DNA from: Escherichia coli
GTDB taxonomy: Bacteria > Pseudomonadota > Gammaproteobacteria > Enterobacterales > Enterobacteriaceae
Length of the DNA stretch: 64,000 nt
Reading direction: 5' to 3' (one strand)
Assembly: GCF_041886205.1 (NCBI RefSeq)
Contig: NZ_CP169029.1
Every line of letters starts with the position of its first letter. The stretch's first letter is position 1. Shown piece after piece: positions 20,980 to 56,700 of the stretch. The notes under the pieces are model-generated. The model did not search any database. It saw nothing but the letters and a program-made list of their open reading frames with translations, and had not been told where the DNA came from. The position numbers and the translations under genes were made by a program.

Positions 20980-22284
20980 TTAGAACTGCGATTCTTCGGT
21001 GGAGCCGGTCAGCGCTGTAACCGACGACGTGCCGCCCTGAATAATAGTCGTCACTTTATCGAAGTAACCTGTACCCACTTCCTGCTGGTGAGATACGAAG
21101 GTATAGCCATCTTTCGCGGCGGCAAATTCCGGCTGCTGCACTTTCTCAACGTAGTGCTTCATACCCTCGCCCTGGGCATAGGCGTTTGCCAGGTCAAACA
21201 TGTTGAACCACATGCTGTGGATACCTGCCAGGGTGATGAACTGGAACTTGTAACCCATATCCGACAGCTGCTGCTGGAAGCTGGCAATAGTTTTGTCGTC
21301 GAGGTTTTTCTGCCAGTTGAACGACGGTGAGCAGTTATAAGCCAGCAGTTTGCCCGGATATTTCGCGTGGATGGCTTGTGCAAAGCGACGCGCCAGTTCC
21401 AGATCCGGCGTGGAGGTTTCACACCATACCAGGTCAGCATATGGCGCATACGCCAGGCCACGGCTGATCGCTTGCTCAATGCCCGCATGAGTACGGAAGA
21501 AGCCTTCACTGGTACGTTCGCCGGTAATAAATTCGCTGTCATACGGGTCGCAATCGGAGGTGATCAGATCCGCCGCATCAGCATCGGTACGTGCAACCAG
21601 CAGGGTTGGAACGCCCGTCACGTCAGCTGCCAGACGCGCCGCGACCAGTTTCTGAATAGCTTCCTGAGTTGGCACCAAAACTTTGCCGCCCATGTGACCG
21701 CATTTCTTCACTGATGCCAGCTGATCTTCGAAGTGAACTGCCGCTGCACCGGCTTCAATCATCGCTTTCATCAGTTCAAAGGCATTCAGGACACCGCCAA
21801 AACCGGCTTCCGCATCGGCAACGATCGGCAGGAAGTAATCGACATAGCGCGGATCGCCCGGCTCAATGCCCGCGGACCATTGGATCTGATCCGCACGGCG
21901 GAAAGTATTGTTGATCCGCTCCACCACAGCTGGCACCGAGTTTGCCGGATAGAGCGACTGATCCGGATACATGCTGGCCGCCAGGTTAGCGTCCGCCGCT
22001 ACCTGCCATCCCGACAGATAGACTGCTTCAATACCCGCTTTCGCCTGTTGCAGCGCCTGACCGCCAGTCAGTGCACCGAGGCTGTTGATGTAGCCTTTTT
22101 TCGACTCGCCGTGCAGCAGACGCCACATTTTCGCCGCGCCCAGTTGCGCCAGGGTGCATTCAGGATTGACTGAACCGCGTAATTTCACCACATCTTCCGC
22201 GCTGTATGGGCGAGTAATGCCTTCCCAACGCGGTTGAGTCCACTCTTTCTGTAATTCTTCAATTTGTTGTGTACGGGTTTTCAT
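20980..22284 (-). CDS. aceA: Isocitrate lyase
   Basis: 434-aa product [27 protein letters not shown]..., ATG at 22282-22284. Confidence 0.97.
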
Positions 22285-31344: not shown

Positions 31345-31451
31345 TACAATGCGGGCGAAAAATAAGGATGCCCCGTTAGGGGCGTTAGCTGAGTTTTTCG
31401 CGAAAAATTCAGCTAACGCTCTCTGTAATAGTCAAATCCAGGGGATTTACC

Positions 31452-33052: not shown

Positions 33053-34342
33053 ATGAAAGTATTAGTGATTGGTAACGGCGGGCGCGAGCACGCGCTGGCC
33101 TGGAAAGCGGCCCAGTCGCCGCTGGTTGAGACTGTTTTTGTTGCTCCGGGTAATGCAGGCACTGCACTGGAACCCGCGCTGCAAAACGTTGCTATTGGCG
33201 TGACCGATATCCCGGCGCTGTTGGATTTCGCACAAAACGAAAAGATTGATCTGACCATCGTCGGCCCGGAAGCGCCGCTGGTGAAAGGCGTGGTCGATAC
33301 CTTCCGCGCCGCCGGGCTGAAAATCTTCGGCCCAACCGCAGGTGCGGCCCAACTGGAAGGCTCAAAAGCGTTTACCAAAGATTTCCTGGCCCGCCATAAG
33401 ATCCCTACGGCGGAATACCAGAACTTCACCGAGGTAGAACCTGCGCTGGCGTATCTGCGTGAGAAAGGCGCGCCAATCGTCATTAAAGCGGACGGTCTGG
33501 CTGCCGGGAAAGGCGTTATCGTGGCGATGACGCTGGAAGAAGCGGAAGCGGCTGTTCACGATATGCTGGCGGGCAACGCTTTTGGCGACGCGGGTCATCG
33601 CATCGTTATCGAAGAGTTCCTCGATGGCGAAGAAGCGAGCTTTATCGTGATGGTGGACGGCGAGCATGTGCTGCCGATGGCTACCAGCCAGGATCACAAA
33701 CGCGTAGGCGATAAAGATACCGGACCAAACACCGGCGGGATGGGCGCTTACTCCCCCGCGCCGGTAGTAACCGATGACGTTCATCAGCGCACCATGGAAC
33801 GTATTATCTGGCCAACCGTGAAAGGCATGGCGGCGGAAGGCAACACCTACACCGGTTTTCTCTACGCGGGCCTGATGATCGACAAACAGGGCAATCCGAA
33901 GGTTATTGAATTTAACTGCCGCTTTGGCGATCCGGAAACCCAGCCGATTATGCTGCGCATGAAGTCCGATCTGGTTGAGCTCTGCCTGGCGGCCTGTGAA
34001 AGCAAACTGGACGAGAAAACGTCCGAGTGGGATGAACGCGCTTCTCTCGGCGTGGTGATGGCTGCGGGTGGATATCCGGGTGATTACCGCACCGGTGACG
34101 TGATCCACGGCCTGCCGCTGGAAGAAGTGGCAGGCGGCAAAGTGTTCCACGCGGGCACAAAACTGGCGGATGACGAGCAGGTAGTGACCAACGGCGGGCG
34201 CGTACTGTGCGTCACCGCGCTGGGTCATACCGTGGCAGAAGCGCAGAAACGCGCCTATGCCTTAATGACCGATATCCACTGGGACGACTGCTTCTGCCGG
34301 AAAGATATCGGCTGGCGCGCTATCGAACGCGAGCAGAACTAA
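33053..34342 (+). CDS. purD: Phosphoribosylamine-glycine ligase
   Basis: 429-aa ORF MKVLVIGNGGREHALAWKAAQSPLVETVFVAPGNAG... Confidence 0.97.
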   Translation: MKVLVIGNGGREHALAWKAAQSPLVETVFVAPGNAGTALEPALQNVAIGVTDIPALLDFAQNEKIDLTIVGPEAPLVKGVVDTFRAAGLKIFGPTAGAAQLEGSKAFTKDFLARHKIPTAEYQNFTEVEPALAYLREKGAPIVIKADGLAAGKGVIVAMTLEEAEAAVHDMLAGNAFGDAGHRIVIEEFLDGEEASFIVMVDGEHVLPMATSQDHKRVGDKDTGPNTGGMGAYSPAPVVTDDVHQRTMERIIWPTVKGMAAEGNTYTGFLYAGLMIDKQGNPKVIEFNCRFGDPETQPIMLRMKSDLVELCLAACESKLDEKTSEWDERASLGVVMAAGGYPGDYRTGDVIHGLPLEEVAGGKVFHAGTKLADDEQVVTNGGRVLCVTALGHTVAEAQKRAYALMTDIHWDDCFCRKDIGWRAIEREQN

Positions 34343-35664
34343 CGCGACAGTTTTGCCAATAGCGTTTTGCGCGTGATCCCTAACTGACGGGCGGCTTCGG
34401 TTTTGTTGCCGCCCGTTTTCTCCAGCGCCGCCAGAATCACCTCTTTTTCCACTTCCACCAACGGCTGAATATCCTGACTTTGTCCCAGCGGGATCGGCGT
34501 ACTGGCAATCGCCAGCGGCAGCTCGCGTTCGGAAATATATTCCCCGGTCAGCAGCACCACTGCCCGTTCCACCGCGTTTTCCAGCTCACGAATATTTCCC
34601 GGCCAGTCGTAATGAATCAACAGATCCATCGCCTGGGGCGTAAAACCTTTTACCGCCTTGCGATTACGCTCGGCAAAGCGCTGCAGAAAATGGCCAGCCA
34701 GCAGAGGGATATCTTCCCGCCGTTGCCGCAGCGATGGTACTTCAATCGCCACCACATTCAGGCGATAGTAGAGATCCTGGCGAAAACGCCCGGCATTCAC
34801 CTCTGCGGCAAGATCGCGATGGGTCGCCGCAATCAGCCGGACATCAACCGAGATAATCTGGTTGCTACCGACACGCTGAACTTCGCGCTCCTGAATCGCA
34901 CGCAGCAGACGCACCTGCATCATCGGCGAGATATCGCCAATTTCATCGAGAAACAGCGTGCCGCCGTCCGCCTCAACAAAGCGCCCTTCCCGGCGTTTAT
35001 CGGCTCCAGTAAACGCCCCTTTTTCGTGACCGAACAATTCAGATTCCAGCAAGGATTCGTTGAGTGCCGCACAGTTGAGCGTTACCAGCGGTTTTTCGCT
35101 ACGTGCGCTACTGGCGTGAATCGCCCTGGCGACCAGCTCTTTACCGGTGCCGGAATCGCCGTGGATCAGTACCGTGGCTTCCGATGGCGCGACGAGGGCG
35201 ATTTCACTGAGCAGGTGTTGCATCGCCGGGCTTTTACCGACCATACCGAACTGGCTGGCAGTCACCGCAGGTGTTTCAGCATCAATACTGTGCGTATGCG
35301 CGAGCGCTTTTTCCAGCGTCGCCTGTAGGTTATCGAAATCCAGCGGCTTGATGAGATAATCCAGCGCCCCAGTTTTCAGTGCCTCTACCGCCGTCTCGAC
35401 GCTGGAGTACGCAGTCATAATCAGCACCGGAATTGCCGGGTTTAACGCTTTGATCTCTTTCAGCGTGGCGATGCCGTCCATCTCCGCCATTCGCACATCG
35501 CAAAGCACAAGATCAAAAACCTGTTCCCGCACCTGCTCCAACGCCTGTCGCCCGCTGTTCGCCAGCGCGACGTTATAGCCCCAGCCGCGCAGTAAAGCCT
35601 GCAAAATAGTGCAGTGGCTAATGTCATCATCCACCACCAGAATATCGATATTATCGTGCGTCAT
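34339..35664 (-). CDS. zraR: Sigma-54-dependent response regulator ZraR
   Basis: 441-aa ORF with receiver domain, AAA+ sigma-54 activator core (GESGTGKE, GAFTGA) and C-terminal HTH. Confidence 0.93.
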
Positions 35665-37058
35665 CCTTGTGGGTCCTTACGCGTAATATTGACCGGAAGC
35701 CAGAGGGTGAACGTTGAGCCTTTTCCCTCCTGGCTTGCGACCTGAATTGTACCACCGTGTTGTTCAACAATATTATGCACGACCGCCAGCCCCAATCCGG
35801 TGCCTTCGGCTTTAGTGGTGAAGTACGGAGTGAAGATGGCATCAAGCTGATCTGCCGCAATTCCCTTACCGCTGTCGGTAACGCTGATTTTCACGCCCGC
35901 GCCGCTTTCGCTGGCCGTCACGCTAATCACGCCATGCTGACCAATCGCCTGAATAGCATTGAGATAGAGATTCAACAGGACCTGAGTCAGCCTGTCCGGG
36001 TCGGCCTGAATTTCCGGTAATGTGTCGTTGGCGGTAAAGCGTAACTGGATCTCCCGGCTGTTTGCATCCTGACTTACCAGCTGTAATGAGTGGTTAATCA
36101 GCGTGTTGAGATCCACCGCCTGCAAAGCCAGATGCGTTGGCTTAACCAGTTCCAGCAACTCGCTTACCACGCGGTTTAAACGGTCGACCTCTTTCGCCAT
36201 CACCTGCGCCAGTTGATGCGCTTCTCCCCCTGCAGGCGCGCGCTCGGCAAAGTATTTCGCCAGTCCTTTAATCGAGGAAAGTGGGTTACGGATTTCGTGG
36301 GCAACGCCTGCCGCAAGATGCCCCAGCGCCACCAGCTTCTCTTTGCGCTTCATTTCATCTTGTAGAAGCTGGCGCGAGCGCAGATAGCGGCGATACCAGA
36401 AGAATGACAATACGCTTGCCAGCAAGACCGTCGCCAGGGCGAAGAGGATAATCAGGGTATTGCGCTTTTCCCCACTCTGGGTTGCAACCAGATCACTGGC
36501 ATCAACGGCGATAAAAATAGCCTGTTGTGCATCTACTTGTGGCACAGCTTTGCCGTTACAGCGCGGCATATTGTGCATTCCATGCCGCCAGGGCGCTGAC
36601 ATTGGCTGGAACAAACGATAGACCTCAAGTGCAGGCGTAGTTTCCGTTTTCCCAAGCAGCCGCCAGCGGGAGTTTTCCTCTGGCTTTAATTTCTGCATTT
36701 CATCCGGCGAATAGAGCGCACGCCCGACCTTATCGGGGTCGCTATGAAGAATAATGATGCCCTGCGCATCGGTGACTGCGAACCACAACACTCCCGGCTG
36801 TCCCGCCATCTCTTCCAGAAGCGCCTGTTGCTGTACATGGTGCATTCGCATCCCCATCCCTACGCGGCTTCCCGACTCCAGAGCGCGGATAAGCACATTA
36901 CCTTTTTCCAGTAATGCCTGGCGGTCTGCCTCGCTTGCCCGCCCATAATCACGAATCACAGTTACCGCAAACAATCCCACCAGCCCAACAATGACCACGG
37001 GGAGGATCGCGCTTAACCATTTAGCTAAGGAGTCTTTAGAACGTTGCATAAAATGCAT
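35661..37058 (-). CDS. zraS: Sensor histidine kinase ZraS
   Basis: 465-aa ORF with two TM segments, HAMP-like region and HisKA/HATPase domains (HEIRNPL...GTGLGL); stop overlaps zraR start by 4 nt. Confidence 0.93.
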   Translation of the reverse strand: MHFMQRSKDSLAKWLSAILPVVIVGLVGLFAVTVIRDYGRASEADRQALLEKGNVLIRALESGSRVGMGMRMHHVQQQALLEEMAGQPGVLWFAVTDAQGIIILHSDPDKVGRALYSPDEMQKLKPEENSRWRLLGKTETTPALEVYRLFQPMSAPWRHGMHNMPRCNGKAVPQVDAQQAIFIAVDASDLVATQSGEKRNTLIILFALATVLLASVLSFFWYRRYLRSRQLLQDEMKRKEKLVALGHLAAGVAHEIRNPLSSIKGLAKYFAERAPAGGEAHQLAQVMAKEVDRLNRVVSELLELVKPTHLALQAVDLNTLINHSLQLVSQDANSREIQLRFTANDTLPEIQADPDRLTQVLLNLYLNAIQAIGQHGVISVTASESGAGVKISVTDSGKGIAADQLDAIFTPYFTTKAEGTGLGLAVVHNIVEQHGGTIQVASQEGKGSTFTLWLPVNITRKDPQG

Positions 37059-37089
37059 CTTCTTCTTTGCCTGCTCATCCCTTTCTGAC

Positions 37090-37105
37090 AGCAGAAATCA
37101 TGCCA
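37090..37105 (-). promoter_or_regulatory. Sigma-54 promoter of zraSR
   Basis: Minus-strand TGGCATGATTTCTGCT (GG and GC spaced for -24/-12). Confidence 0.6.
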
Positions 37106-37155
37106 TCTTTTATCAGCGCTTACCCTGCGCTGTAACACAAAGGCTTAAGTTTCAA

Positions 37156-37203
37156 CGAGTAAAAATGACTCGCTACCCGCAGCAGGCGAGTCATTTTTAC
37201 TCG
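37156..37203. promoter_or_regulatory. Paired ZraR enhancer binding sites
   Basis: CGAGTAAAAATGACTCG (37156-37172) and its reverse complement CGAGTCATTTTTACTCG (37187-37203) between the divergent sigma-54 promoters. Confidence 0.65.
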
Positions 37204-37244
37204 TTTATCATGCCAGATTACCCGTCATATCAGCGTTTTATCGT

Positions 37245-37260
37245 TGGCACGGAAGATGCA
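37245..37260 (+). promoter_or_regulatory. Sigma-54 promoter of zraP
   Basis: TGGCACGGAAGATGCA with GG at 37246-37247 and GC at 37258-37259. Confidence 0.65.
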
Positions 37261-37295
37261 ATACCCGAAGTAAGACAACCACTGGAGGATTAACC

Positions 37296-37721
37296 ATGAA
37301 ACGGAACACGAAAATTGCCCTGGTAATGATGGCGCTTTCAGCAATGGCGATGGGATCGACATCTGCATTTGCTCACGGCGGACATGGTATGTGGCAGCAA
37401 AATATAGCGCCCTTGACCAGCGAACAACAAACTACGTGGCAAAAAATCCATAATGACTTTTACGCTCAAAGCAGCGCGCTGCAACAACAGCTAATGGCTA
37501 AGCGTTATGAATACAATGCCCTGTTAGCCGCGAACCCACCGGATAGCAGCAAAATTAACGCGGTCGCCAAAGAGATGGAGAATTTGCGTCAGTCGTTAGA
37601 TGAGTTACGGGTGAAACGGGATATTGCGATGGCTGAAGCGGGTATTCCGCGCGGAGCCGGAATGGGCATGGGCTACGGCGGCTGCGGTGGTGGCGGTCAT
37701 ATGGGTATGGGCCACTGGTAA
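37296..37721 (+). CDS. zraP: Periplasmic zinc-binding chaperone ZraP
   Basis: 141-aa ORF with signal peptide and Gly/Met/His-rich C-terminus (GMGMGYGGCGGGGHMGMGHW). Confidence 0.9.
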   Translation: MKRNTKIALVMMALSAMAMGSTSAFAHGGHGMWQQNIAPLTSEQQTTWQKIHNDFYAQSSALQQQLMAKRYEYNALLAANPPDSSKINAVAKEMENLRQSLDELRVKRDIAMAEAGIPRGAGMGMGYGGCGGGGHMGMGHW

Positions 37722-41307: not shown

Positions 41308-42081
41308 TCACTCATACTCTGCCCGACACATCGCCACAGTATCTTCTATCAGACGGCGCGCTACGGTGCCGGGCGGCGGGAGTAACGGCAAATCGTCATA
41401 GCGATACCAGTTCGCCTCAAGCAATTCTTTCGGGTCGATCACGATGTCGCCGCTGTCATATTCCGCCATAAACGCGGTCATTAAAGACTGAGGAAACGGC
41501 CACGGCTGGGAAGTCACATAACGCAAGTTTTTAACTTTAATTCCGCTCTCTTCCATCACTTCCCGCGCGACCGCCTGCTCGAGGGTTTCGCCCACTTCGA
41601 CGAATCCGGCAAGTACCGTATGGACACCGTTACGATGGCGGGTATGCTGGGCGAGGAGGATCGAATCATCGCGACGGATGGCAACAATAATGCAGGGGGC
41701 GATTTGCGGGTAGTAACGCTCACGGCAATGGCTGCACAGCATCGCCCATTCGGTTTTGCTCGGATACATTTCATGCCCGCAGTAACCACAGTATTTATGC
41801 GATCGGTAAAACTCCGCCAGTTGTACGCCTCGTCCGGCCAGTTGAAACAGCCCAACATCGAGATCAATGACCTGACGTACCGACCCCATATCGTGACGCC
41901 GCTGCTGTTGTACTAACCAAACAGGTTCCCCCTGCCATTCGCCGATTTGTAGTGCGCGCTGACCCACAAGATCGAAATTTGCCGCTTCGCCATATGGCAA
42001 TTCTCCCTTCGGCAACCATAATTTTTGTTCATGGCTGACGACCCACCAGCCGTGATCTAATTTTTCAATTATACGATCCAT
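41308..42081 (-). CDS. nudC: NADH pyrophosphatase (Nudix hydrolase)
   Basis: 257-aa ORF with zinc-ribbon CGYCGH...CSHC and Nudix box ([22 protein letters not shown]). Confidence 0.93.
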
Positions 42082-53710: not shown

Positions 53711-56700
53711 TTACTCGTCTTCCAGTTCGATGTTGATACCCAGCGAACGAATCTCTTTCAACAATACGTTGAAGGATTCTGGCATGCCCGGCTCCATCTG
53801 ATGGTTGCCGTCCACGATGTTTTTATACATCTTGGTACGACCGTTCACGTCATCAGACTTAACGGTGAGCATTTCCTGCAGGGTGTATGCTGCGCCGTAT
53901 GCTTCCAGCGCCCACACTTCCATCTCCCCGAAACGCTGACCACCGAACTGTGCCTTACCACCCAGCGGCTGCTGAGTAACCAGGCTGTAAGAACCGGTGG
54001 AACGCGCGTGCATCTTGTCGTCGACCAGGTGGTTCAGTTTCAGCATGTACATGTAACCAACGGTTACCGGACGCTCGAACTGTTCACCAGTGCGACCATC
54101 GTACAGGCGGATCTGACCAGAAGTCGGCAGGTCGCCAAGTTTCAGCAGCTCTTTAATTTCTGCTTCTTTCGCACCGTCGAACACCGGCGTTGCGATTGGC
54201 ATACCTTTGCGCAGGTTTTCAGCCAGACGCATAACTTCTTCATCGCTGAAGGTACTCAGGTCAACTTTCTGACGAACGTCAGCGCCCAGATCGTACGCAC
54301 GCTGGATGAATTCGCGCAGTTTCGCGACTTCCTGCTGCTGTTTCAGCATGGCGTTGATCTTGTCGCCGATACCTTTCGCAGCCATACCCAAGTGGGTTTC
54401 GAGGATCTGACCGATGTTCATACGAGACGGTACGCCCAGCGGGTTCAGTACGATGTCTACCGGCGTACCGTTTTCATCGTAAGGCATATCTTCGATCGGG
54501 TTGATCTTAGAAATTACACCCTTGTTACCGTGACGACCTGCCATCTTGTCACCAGGCTGGATACGGCGTTTAACCGCCAGATATACCTTAACAATCTTCA
54601 GCACGCCCGGTGCCAGATCGTCGCCCTGGGTGATTTTGCGGCGTTTCGCTTCGAGTTTCTTCTCGAACTCGTGTTTCAGTTCGTCATACTGCTCAGCCAG
54701 CTGTTCCAGCTGATTTTGTTTCTCTTCGTCGGTCAGACCCAGCTCCAGCCAGCGATCGCGCGGCAGTTTGTCGAGCTTCTCAGCTTCAACGCCACCGGCT
54801 ACCAGCACAGCACGGATACGGCTGAACAGACCCGCTTCGAGGATCTGCAGTTCTTCAGACAGGTCTTTCTTCGCCTGTTTGAGCTGCATTTCTTCGATTT
54901 CCAGCGCACGTTTGTCTTTTTCTACGCCATCGCGAGTAAAGACCTGAACGTCGATAACCGTACCGGATACACCGTTTGGTACGCGCAGAGAAGAGTCTTT
55001 AACGTCAGACGCTTTCTCACCGAAGATCGCACGCAGCAGTTTTTCTTCTGGGGTCAGCTGGGTTTCACCTTTCGGCGTTACCTTACCAACCAGAATGTCG
55101 CCACCGGTTACTTCCGCACCAATGTAAACGATACCGGATTCATCCAGTTTGGAGAGCGCAGCTTCACCCACGTTCGGGATGTCAGCGGTGATCTCTTCTG
55201 GCCCCAGCTTGGTGTCACGGGACACACACGCCAGTTCCTGAATGTGGATGGTGGTGAAACGGTCTTCCTGAACAACACGCTCGGATACGAGGATGGAGTC
55301 TTCGAAGTTGTAACCATTCCACGGCATGAACGCTACGCGCATGTTCTGACCAAGCGCCAGTTCACCGAGGTCGGTGGACGGACCGTCTGCCAGCACGTCG
55401 CCACGTTCAACCGGTTCACCCAGAGACACACACGGCATCTGGTTGATACAGGTGTTCTGGTTAGAACGGGTGTATTTGGTCAGGTTGTAGATGTCGATAC
55501 CTGCTTCACCCGGATACATCTCGTCCTCGTTAACTTTGATAACGATACGGGAAGCATCCACGTACTGAACGACACCACCACGTTTAGCTACCGCAGTTAC
55601 ACCGGAGTCAACGGCAACAGCACGTTCCATACCAGTACCAACCAGCGGCTTATCAGCGCGCAGAGTCGGAACGGCCTGACGTTGCATGTTCGCACCCATC
55701 AATGCACGGTTGGCGTCATCGTGTTCCAGGAACGGGATCAGGGACGCACCGACGGATACCACCTGCTGGGTGGATACGTCCATGTAGTCAACCTGGTCGC
55801 GGCTGAACAAGCTGGATTCGCCTTTGCTACGGCAAGTTACCAGGTCTTCTACGAAGTGGCCTTCTTCATCCAGGTTGGAGTTCGCCTGGGCGATAACGTA
55901 GTTGCCTTCTTCGATAGCAGACAGGTAGTGAATTTCGTCAGTTACAACACCGTCGGTCACTTTACGATACGGAGTCTCAAGGAAGCCGTATTCGTTAGTC
56001 TGTGCGTACACGGACAGAGAGTTGATCAGACCGATGTTCGGACCTTCAGGGGTTTCGATTGGACATACGCGACCGTAGTGAGTCGGGTGTACGTCTCGAA
56101 CTTCGAAGCCTGCACGTTCACGGGTCAGACCACCTGGGCCGAGTGCGGAGATACGACGTTTGTGCGTAATCTCAGACAGCGGGTTGTTCTGGTCCATAAA
56201 CTGAGACAGCTGGCTGGAACCGAAGAACTCTTTCACTGCTGCGGAAATCGGCTTGGCGTTGATCATATCCTGAGGCATCAGGGTATCCAGATCGCCCAGA
56301 GACAGACGCTCTTTCACCGCACGCTCTACACGTACCAGGCCAACGCGGAACTGGTTTTCCGCCATTTCGCCAACGGAACGGATACGACGGTTGCCGAGGT
56401 GGTCGATATCATCGACTTCGCCTTTACCGTTACGGATATCGATGAGCTTTTTCATAACATCAATGATGTCGTCTTTGCTCAGGATACCGGAACCTTCGAT
56501 TTCTTCGCGCAGCAGAGAACGGTTGAACTTCATACGACCAACCGCAGACAGGTCATAACGGTCTTCGGAGAAGAACAGGTTCTCGAACAGGCTTTCCGCT
56601 GCTTCACGAGTCGGCGGCTCGCCAGGGCGCATCATGCGGTAGATTTCTACCAGTGCGCTCAGACGGTCGTTAGTTGGGTCGACACGTAAGGTTTCAGAGA

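What the first reader, a model, noticed from the sequence alone, without database searches (positions are those of the whole stretch)
37090..37260. Compact divergent sigma-54 control region with paired ZraR palindromes
Two sigma-54 -24/-12 elements on opposite strands (37090-37105 and 37245-37260) flank a pair of 17-bp inverted-repeat sites (37156-37203) that are exact reverse complements of each other. This is a textbook bidirectional enhancer architecture and fully intact here. It is not novel, but it is a clean internal control for motif calling in this window.
Basis: partly seen in the sequence, partly recalled or inferred. Interest (0 to 1): 0.15.

Follow-up and report, generated by a model that had tools for sequence, protein, structure and literature searches.

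The report
Known zraP–zraSR sigma-54 control region
This is the well-known E. coli switch between the zraP gene and the zraSR operon, in which one activator-binding site (for ZraR) sits between two outward-facing sigma-54 promoters; it is intact and ordinary, apart from one rare base change that makes the binding site perfectly symmetric.

Summary
Window 37059-37295 is the E. coli zraP / zraSR intergenic region. It holds two outward-facing sigma-54 -24/-12 elements: TGGCATGATTTCTGCT on the minus strand at 37105..37090, and TGGCACGGAAGATGCA on the plus strand at 37245-37260. Both are identical to motifs mapped by sigma-54 ChIP-seq in K-12. Between them lie two 17-bp sites, 37156-37172 and 37187-37203. 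The strongest ZraR ChIP-exo peak in the K-12 genome maps to window 37166-37198, inside this pair. In an alignment of nine sequences from five genera, these four elements are conserved (column identity 0.92-1.00) and the DNA between them is not (0.56-0.62). The two sites are 31 bp apart centre to centre in all nine. Three corrections apply. The loose -24/-12 pattern alone is not above chance (5 matches found, 3.3 expected), so context carries the call. Each 17-mer is only an imperfect palindrome, and the invariant part is the 11-bp core GTCATTTTTAC. The "exact reverse complement" comes from a C at 37156 found in 1 of 5426 complete E. coli genomes; K-12 has T. The feature is already known and of low interest, but it is a valid positive control.

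The parts
34339..35664 (-). zraR: sigma-54-dependent response regulator (enhancer-binding protein)
   Evidence: NCBIfam equivalog NF007689, 994.8 bits against a cut-off of 760. Pfam domains Response_reg, Sigma54_activat, AAA_lid_14 and HTH_8. The GAFTGA motif is visible in the translation.
35661..37058 (-). zraS: sensor histidine kinase
   Evidence: NCBIfam equivalog NF007688, 840.6 bits against a cut-off of 479. Annotated zraS in RefSeq genomes.
37079..37079 (-). Predicted zraSR transcription start, 21 nt upstream of the ATG
   Evidence: Bonocora's rule (19 bp downstream of the motif centre) applied to the motif at 37106..37090 reproduces their listed distance of 21. This is a prediction; no mapped 5' end was available to me.
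37090..37105 (-). zraSR sigma-54 promoter, TGGCATGATTTCTGCT (GG at 37104-37103, GC at 37092-37091)
   Evidence: Identical to ChIP-seq motif OS39. Column identity 0.96 across five genera, 12 of 16 columns invariant.
37156..37172 (.). Left ZraR site CGAGTAAAAATGACTCG, centred at 37164: -85 from the zraS start and -107 from the zraP start
   Evidence: Column identity 0.92, and 0.98 for the core GTAAAAATGAC. Its inner half lies under ChIP-exo peak_9.
37173..37186 (.). 14-bp spacer, fixed in length but not conserved in sequence
   Evidence: No invariant column and identity 0.56, yet no indel in any of the nine sequences. It also varies within E. coli.
37187..37203 (.). Right ZraR site CGAGTCATTTTTACTCG, centred at 37195: -76 from the zraP start and -116 from the zraS start
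   Evidence: Column identity 0.97, and the core GTCATTTTTAC is invariant at all 11 positions. It lies under ChIP-exo peak_9.
37166..37198 (.). Window equivalent of ZraR ChIP-exo peak_9 (NC_000913.3 4201786-4201818, S/N 72.97)
   Evidence: PMC7657598 supplementary file 2. The coordinates were checked against the K-12 sequence, where the interval reads TGACTCGCTACCCGCAGCAGGCGAGTCATTTT.
37245..37260 (+). zraP sigma-54 promoter, TGGCACGGAAGATGCA (GG at 37246-37247, GC at 37258-37259)
   Evidence: Identical to ChIP-seq motif OS38, PSSM 12.3, FAT 39. Same sequence at the Salmonella ChIP-chip site. Column identity 0.96.
37271..37271 (+). Predicted zraP transcription start, 25 nt upstream of the ATG
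   Evidence: Bonocora's rule reproduces their listed distance of 25. This is a prediction.
37296..37721 (+). zraP: periplasmic CpxP-like chaperone and modulator
   Evidence: NCBIfam equivalog NF008584, 271.8 bits against a cut-off of 200. Pfam Metal_resist.

Best explanation
This is the shared enhancer and promoter region of the ZraPSR envelope-stress and zinc-responsive system. RNA polymerase carrying sigma-54 sits in inactive closed complexes at two divergent -24/-12 promoters, one for zraP (predicted start about 37271) and one for zraSR (predicted start about 37079). When ZraS phosphorylates ZraR, ZraR dimers bound through their Fis-type HTH domains to the two dyad-symmetric sites assemble into an AAA+ ring. 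The sites are 31 bp apart centre to centre, about three helical turns, so they lie on the same face of the DNA. The ring reaches either promoter by looping the roughly 75-115 bp of DNA in between, and uses ATP hydrolysis and its GAFTGA loop to remodel sigma-54 and open the promoter. One enhancer therefore drives strong induction of zraP and positive autoregulation of zraSR. Shown here or in the cited data: the sequences, locus identity, sigma-54 occupancy, ZraR occupancy on the palindromes, ZraR-dependent expression, and cross-genus conservation with fixed spacing. Inferred from general knowledge of NtrC-family activators: dimer-per-site binding, ring assembly and looping.
For: Locus identity is settled by NCBIfam equivalogs, RefSeq annotation and the ZraR domain set REC + AAA+ sigma-54 interaction + HTH_8. 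Sigma-54 ChIP-seq motifs OS38 and OS39 are identical to the window sequences, and the predicted starts reproduce the published distances of 25 and 21 bp. The orthologous Salmonella promoters were mapped by ChIP-chip. RpoN holoenzyme gSELEX also gives a peak in this spacer. ZraR ChIP-exo peak_9 is the strongest in the genome (S/N 73) and lies entirely inside the palindrome pair. In ZraR gSELEX, 81 of 86 clones came from this spacer. In the zraR knockout with zinc, log2 expression falls by 12.7 for zraP and 3.2 for zraS. The phylogenetic footprint used loci selected through ZraP protein homology rather than through the motif: the four elements score 0.92-1.00 identity against 0.56-0.62 between them, with 31-bp site spacing in 9 of 9. 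The simple scan found no sigma-70-like promoter and no terminator in 36950-37400.
Against: I could not read the original footprinting paper (Leonhartsberger et al. 2001, J Mol Biol 307:93), which is not held. My recollection that it describes two inverted repeats separated by 14 bp is therefore unverified. EcoCyc listed both promoters as 'predicted' in 2015, and I have no mapped 5' ends. A 2016 review lists the ZraR enhancer sequence as 'not known'. zraS expression does not change in a zraR knockout in plain LB (log2 -0.02), so a basal promoter independent of ZraR must exist, and I did not find it. A second ChIP-exo peak over the zraP ribosome-binding site and start codon (window 37286-37311) is not explained by a direct binding site.
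Confidence: 0.95

Rival explanations
1. The 20-nt-arm inverted repeat is a structural element (DNA cruciform, RNA hairpin or terminator, or a REP-like repeat) rather than a pair of protein-binding sites.
For: In this window the arms are 100% complementary over 20 nt with a 12-nt loop, so a stable hairpin could form on either strand.
Against: Complementarity between the two arms is not conserved: 13-16 of 17 in other genera, and 17 of 17 only here. What is conserved is the base sequence of the cores, not their ability to pair. There is no T-run and no terminator call. The repeat lies upstream of both predicted start sites, so it should not be transcribed. The ZraR ChIP-exo peak sits on it.
Confidence: 0.02
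2. The palindromes are bound mainly by a regulator other than ZraR, for example another enhancer-binding protein cross-activating zraP, and the ZraR signal is secondary.
For: zraP rises under nitrogen limitation. The ZraR iModulon is active in ethanol and in phosphate starvation, and baeR knockouts change zraP expression.
Against: No NtrC binding upstream of zraP was detected by ChIP-seq. Purified ZraR selects this spacer in vitro. ZraR ChIP-exo peaks on the palindromes. Loss of zraR abolishes zraP expression (log2 -12.7). The other stimuli can act through ZraS.
Confidence: 0.02
3. The enhancer serves only zraP. The minus-strand -24/-12 element is a bound but non-productive sigma-54 site, and zraSR is transcribed from another promoter.
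For: The sigma-54 ChIP signal is weaker at zraS (FAT 9 against 39). zraS does not depend on ZraR in unstimulated LB. ICA did not place zraS in the ZraR iModulon.
Against: With zinc, zraS falls by log2 3.18 in the zraR knockout. The zraS -24/-12 core is as conserved as the zraP one (0.96). Its distance to the enhancer is held to 73-76 bp across genera. hydHG was sigma-54-dependent in Salmonella microarrays. No sigma-70-like promoter was found.
Confidence: 0.04

Closest known systems
E. coli K-12 zraP-zraSR (hydHG) intergenic region, b4002/b4003
   Same: It is the same locus. In the 271-bp alignment spanning the spacer, the window differs from K-12 at three positions. Both sigma-54 motifs, both 16-bp site cores, the 14-bp spacer and all distances are identical.
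   Different: The window has C at 37156 where K-12 has T. This base is the outermost position of the left site and is what makes the two 17-mers exact reverse complements. The other two differences are T for C at 37239 in the spacer, and T for C at 37054, which lies in the second codon of zraS (His in the window translation).
NtrC enhancer at glnAp2 (two strong NtrC sites about three helical turns apart, upstream of a sigma-54 promoter); from my general knowledge, not tested here
   Same: Paired dyad-symmetric sites on one helical face, about 80-140 bp upstream, bound by a REC-AAA+-HTH response regulator that activates by looping.
   Different: The ZraR enhancer lies between two divergent sigma-54 promoters and serves both. 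It sits closer to them (site centres -76 to -116). It has a different recognition sequence, with core GTCATTTTTAC.
norR-norVW control region (NorR enhancer sites in a divergent spacer; PMC2831303 listed, consensus GT-N7-AC)
   Same: A compact divergent spacer next to the activator gene. The activator-binding sites are short inverted repeats with a 7-bp centre.
   Different: According to its abstract, norVW has three enhancer sites, all required, associated with a single sigma-54-RNA polymerase binding site. Here there are two sites and both divergent promoters are sigma-54 dependent.

Membership tests
Sigma-54 (-24/-12) promoter | GG and GC dinucleotides with GG-N10-GC spacing, within a TGGCAC-N5-TTGCW-like context | tested here: met
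   TGGCATGATTTCTGCT (minus strand) and TGGCACGGAAGATGCA (plus strand). Published PSSM scores for the identical K-12 motifs are 11.4 and 12.3.
Sigma-54 (-24/-12) promoter | Correct orientation and a short distance to a downstream gene | tested here: met
   Both elements face outward. The predicted starts lie 21 nt (zraS) and 25 nt (zraP) upstream of the ATGs.
Sigma-54 (-24/-12) promoter | Occupied by sigma-54 in vivo | tested here: met
   This rests on sequence identity with mapped sites, not on an experiment with this strain. Sources: ChIP-seq OS38 and OS39 in K-12, Salmonella ChIP-chip and RpoN gSELEX.
Sigma-54 (-24/-12) promoter | Transcription requires rpoN and an enhancer-binding protein | not testable with these tools
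   Literature only: the zraR knockout abolishes zraP expression, and the genes are sigma-54 dependent in Salmonella microarrays.
Enhancer (UAS) for an NtrC-family activator, specifically ZraR | The cognate activator is encoded nearby and has REC, AAA+ sigma-54-interaction (GAFTGA) and HTH_8 domains | tested here: met
   ZraR equivalog, 994.8 bits. Pfam domains. GAFTGA seen in the translation.
Enhancer (UAS) for an NtrC-family activator, specifically ZraR | Paired dyad-symmetric sites upstream of the promoter, in helical phase with each other | tested here: met
   Two 17-bp imperfect palindromes (6 of 8 symmetric positions) with centres 31 bp apart in 9 of 9 sequences. Centres lie -76 and -107 from the zraP start, and -85 and -116 from the zraS start.
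Enhancer (UAS) for an NtrC-family activator, specifically ZraR | The activator occupies these bases | tested here: met
   ChIP-exo peak_9 at 4201786-4201818 maps inside the palindrome pair at 4201781-4201828. gSELEX gives this spacer as the single high-affinity target. The classical footprint paper could not be read.
Enhancer (UAS) for an NtrC-family activator, specifically ZraR | Conserved by selection across species while the flanking DNA diverges | tested here: met
   Site identity 0.92-0.97 and core identity 0.98-1.00, against 0.56-0.62 for the flanks and spacer, in Escherichia, Salmonella, Citrobacter, Kosakonia and Pluralibacter.
Enhancer (UAS) for an NtrC-family activator, specifically ZraR | The sites are required for activation (mutational proof) | not testable with these tools
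   This needs reporter assays with mutated cores.
IHF-assisted sigma-54 promoter | A conserved IHF site (WATCAANNNNTTR) between enhancer and promoter | tested here: not met
   The only match is a one-mismatch hit at 37228-37240. Matches across the window are at chance frequency (51 found, 48 expected). K-12 carries a further mismatch at that position, and the interval is not conserved (0.59).

The most novel reading that the evidence does not exclude
A single ZraR ring assembled on one fixed-geometry enhancer can engage only one of the two divergent closed complexes at a time. Competition between the promoters, tuned by helical phasing, would then set the ratio of ZraP to ZraSR. The phasing evidence is that the enhancer-to-zraP distance differs by exactly 11 bp, about one helical turn, between Escherichia and the other genera. 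The private C at 37156, which perfects the left site's outer half, might shift that balance in this lineage.
Probability: 0.15. Interest if true: 0.25.

Novelty: already known. Interest (0 to 1): 0.07.

Why it matters
It adds nothing to biology, because the ZraPSR control region has been characterised since 2001 and mapped again by ChIP-seq, ChIP-exo and gSELEX. Its value is methodological. It is a verified positive control for calling sigma-54 promoters and enhancers in this window. It also carries a caution: the loose -24/-12 pattern alone occurs at chance frequency, and the three other matches in the window are not among the published high-stringency ChIP-seq sites. The cross-genus footprint also gives a sharper description of the ZraR site than the open literature I could read. 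That description is two inverted copies of an invariant GTCATTTTTAC core, 31 bp apart, with R/Y-tolerant outer arms.

Tried and rejected
- **Original footprint paper.** I tried to read Leonhartsberger et al. 2001 by PubMed id, but it is not held. Full-text searches for the site sequence, and for 'HydG / inverted repeats / spacer', found nothing relevant.
- **Motif scan of genomes.** I scanned one genome per species for GAGT-N7-ACTCG-N10-14-CGAGT-N7-ACTC. Only four enterobacterial hits appeared (E. coli, E. whittamii, Escherichia sp. MOD1, a Pluralibacter MAG). The rest were unrelated matches in GC-rich Actinobacteria and assorted MAGs, including a repeat family in Nesterenkonia. The pattern was too strict because arm positions 3 and 15 vary (A/G and T/C). 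I therefore switched to selecting loci through ZraP homologues, independent of the motif.
- **IHF site.** None was found above chance or conserved.
- **Sigma-70 promoters and terminators in the spacer.** None were found.
- **Hairpin or cruciform reading of the inverted repeat.** Rejected, because arm-to-arm complementarity is not conserved while the core sequence is.
- **Other copies of the ZraR core in the window.** None, even with one mismatch allowed.

Full report
**Observation.**
- The minus strand at 37105..37090 reads TGGCATGATTTCTGCT. The plus strand at 37245-37260 reads TGGCACGGAAGATGCA.
- Both have the GG-N10-GC spacing of sigma-54 promoters. They point outward towards the flanking genes, whose start codons are at 37058 (minus strand) and 37296 (plus strand).
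- Between them lie CGAGTAAAAATGACTCG (37156-37172) and CGAGTCATTTTTACTCG (37187-37203), which are exact reverse complements.
- The perfect inverted repeat is actually longer: 20-nt arms at 37154-37173 and 37186-37205.

**Is it more than chance?**
- The loose pattern TGGCA-N7-TGC is not significant by itself. It gives 5 matches in the window against 3.26 expected, and 21 of 100 shuffles reach 5.
- The other three matches (21931, 41679, 54601) are intragenic and are absent from the published sigma-54 ChIP-seq tables.
- The palindromes are clearly non-random. Exact CGAGT-N7-ACTCG occurs only at these two sites. With one mismatch allowed there are 6 matches against 1.85 expected, and no shuffle reaches 6.
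- The repeat is the only perfect inverted repeat with separate arms in the 64 kb.
- From the rate, I estimate roughly 4e-5 for two correctly oriented loose sigma-54 matches in one 237-bp spacer.
- The significance therefore lies in the architecture and context, not in the promoter motif alone.

**Identity of the locus.**
- The flanking ORFs pass the NCBIfam equivalog models: ZraP 271.8 bits (cut-off 200), ZraS 840.6 bits (cut-off 479), ZraR 994.8 bits (cut-off 760).
- ZraR has Response_reg, Sigma54_activat, AAA_lid_14 and HTH_8 domains, and its translation contains GAFTGA.
- The region is present in 5420 of 5426 complete E. coli genomes and is annotated zraP / zraS.
- Gene order is purD, zraR, zraS | zraP, yjaH, hupA, yjaG, nfi, hemE, nudC, as in K-12.

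**Published occupancy data.**
- *Sigma-54.* Bonocora et al. 2015 (PMC4591121) list ChIP-seq peaks OS38 (TTGGCACGGAAGATGCA, zraP, FAT 39, PSSM 12.3) and OS39 (ATGGCATGATTTCTGCT, zraS, FAT 9, PSSM 11.4). Both are identical to the window.
- *Predicted starts.* Their rule places the start 19 bp downstream of the motif centre. That gives window 37271 and 37079 and reproduces their tabulated distances of 25 and 21 bp to the start codons. EcoCyc then listed both promoters as "predicted".
- *Other sigma-54 data.* Samuels et al. 2013 (PMC3844500) mapped the orthologous Salmonella sites by ChIP-chip. RpoN holoenzyme gSELEX also peaks in this spacer.
- *ZraR in vitro.* In gSELEX, 81 of 86 clones came from this spacer, the single high-affinity target (PMC8249747).
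- *ZraR in vivo.* The ChIP-exo supplement of Choudhary et al. 2020 (PMC7657598) gives peak_9, the strongest peak (S/N 72.97), at NC_000913.3 4201786-4201818. On the K-12 sequence this interval reads TGACTCGCTACCCGCAGCAGGCGAGTCATTTT. That is the inner halves of both palindromes plus the spacer, equivalent to window 37166-37198.
- *Expression.* In the same study the zraR knockout lowered zraP by log2 12.7 and zraS by log2 3.2 in zinc.
- I could not read the original footprinting paper by Leonhartsberger et al. 2001. My recollection that it reports two inverted repeats separated by a 14-bp spacer fits the 14 bp at 37173-37186, but it is unverified.

**Phylogenetic footprint.**
- A strict motif scan of one genome per species found the pattern in only four enterobacterial genomes, because the outer arm positions vary.
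- I therefore chose loci through ZraP protein homologues. I fetched their upstream DNA from Salmonella, Citrobacter farmeri, C. freundii, C. rodentium, Kosakonia and Pluralibacter. All share the same gene order.
- I aligned these with E. whittamii and a Pluralibacter MAG and measured mean column identity:

| Element | Column identity |
|---|---|
| zraS -24/-12 core | 0.96 |
| Left site | 0.92 (core 0.98) |
| Right site | 0.97 (core 1.00) |
| zraP -24/-12 core | 0.96 |
| DNA between the elements and the 14-bp spacer | 0.56-0.62 |

- The site centres are 31 bp apart in all nine sequences, although the spacer has no invariant column.
- The distance from the dyad to the zraS -24 element is 73-76 bp.
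- The distance from the dyad to the zraP -24 element is 67 bp in Escherichia, 78 bp in six of the other sequences and 75 bp in the MAG. The 11-bp difference is about one helical turn.
- Within E. coli, the 16-bp cores of both sites are invariant in a sample that spans the ranking from best to weakest match. So are both -24/-12 cores, apart from one substitution in the unconserved stretch between -24 and -12 of the zraP promoter (strain 4/0). The remaining substitutions fall in the spacer and flanks.

- Each 17-mer is only an imperfect palindrome, with 6 of 8 symmetric positions. The part under strongest constraint is the asymmetric 11-bp core GTCATTTTTAC, present as an inverted pair. Arm positions 3 and 15 tolerate A/G and T/C.
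- The exact reverse-complement relation is not a property of the system. It is 17 of 17 only here and 13-16 of 17 elsewhere.
- That relation depends on C at 37156. K-12 and six other diverse strains have T there.
- The 44-mer carrying C matches only one of 5426 genomes, strain wlxctx60, which was isolated from an Asian black bear in Japan. That strain is also the best match to the region.

**Mechanism.**
- Shown: sigma-54 and ZraR occupy the named elements, expression depends on ZraR, and the elements and their spacing are under purifying selection.
- Inferred from what is established for NtrC-family activators: ZraR dimers bind each site through HTH_8, phosphorylation by ZraS promotes assembly of an AAA+ ring on the two in-phase sites, and the ring loops to either closed complex and uses ATP hydrolysis to open it.
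- No conserved IHF site lies between enhancer and promoters. The simple scan found no sigma-70-like promoter or terminator.

**Rivals.**
- A hairpin or cruciform role for the inverted repeat is rejected. Arm-to-arm pairing is not conserved while the base sequence is, the repeat lies upstream of both starts, and ZraR sits on it.
- Binding by a different regulator is unlikely, given in vitro selection by purified ZraR and the knockout phenotype.
- The idea that the zraS element is non-productive is contradicted by its conservation, its fixed distance from the enhancer, and the ZraR-dependent induction of zraS in zinc.

**Verdict.** The feature is already known and of low interest. It remains a valid positive control, with the caveat that only context distinguishes the true sigma-54 sites from chance matches in this window.

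Noticed in passing
window 37156: C here is a near-private allele. The 44-mer 37135-37178 matches only strain wlxctx60 among 5426 complete E. coli genomes, and K-12 plus six diverse strains have T. This single base makes the two 17-mers exact reverse complements and extends the perfect inverted repeat to 20-nt arms.
   Followed up: yes
window 37204-37244, against L049-L054 about 1400-1470: The distance from the enhancer dyad to the zraP -24 GG is 67 bp in Escherichia but 78 bp in Salmonella, Citrobacter, Kosakonia and Pluralibacter. The difference is 11 bp, about one helical turn, which suggests the face-of-helix phasing is preserved.
   Followed up: partly
window 37286-37311 (NC_000913.3 4201673-4201698): A second ZraR ChIP-exo peak (peak_8, S/N 34) lies over the zraP ribosome-binding site and start codon, where there is no palindrome. 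It may be a cross-link to promoter-bound polymerase through the loop, but it is unexplained.
   Followed up: no
window 36950-37100 (upstream of zraS): zraS expression does not change in a zraR knockout in plain LB (log2 -0.02) but drops by 3.2 in zinc. A basal promoter independent of ZraR must therefore exist, yet the simple scan finds no sigma-70-like site in 36950-37400.
   Followed up: partly
window 37097-37105 and 37207-37215: The 9-mer ATCATGCCA is repeated. The second copy gives a minus-strand TGGCAT right next to the right ZraR site, but it has no GC at the -12 position and is not conserved outside E. coli. It is probably incidental.
   Followed up: partly
L004 141-269 (strain CLSC36), equivalent to window about 37165-37293: RefSeq annotates a 42-aa 'hypothetical protein' CDS inside the intergenic control region, overlapping the right ZraR site and the zraP promoter. 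It is very likely a spurious gene call.
   Followed up: no
L008 (strain 2018-05-2CC): zraS is annotated as an incomplete pseudogene in this strain, while the control region and zraP remain intact.
   Followed up: no
L035-L041 (Nesterenkonia sp. PF2B19): The search pattern GAGT-N7-ACTCG...CGAGT-N7-ACTC occurs on seven different contigs of one actinobacterial genome, always as a 44-bp match. This points to an unrelated dispersed repeat family.
   Followed up: no
window 21931-21945 (+), 41679-41693 (+), 54601-54615 (-): Three more loose TGGCA-N7-TGC matches. All lie inside long ORFs, and none appears in the published sigma-54 ChIP-seq tables. They are useful negative controls for motif calling.
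   Followed up: partly
window 31382-31419: A 38-bp near-perfect palindrome (GCGTTAGCTGAGTTTTTCGCGAAAAATTCAGCTAACGC, 96% complementary) is the longest inverted repeat in the window. I did not examine it.
   Followed up: no
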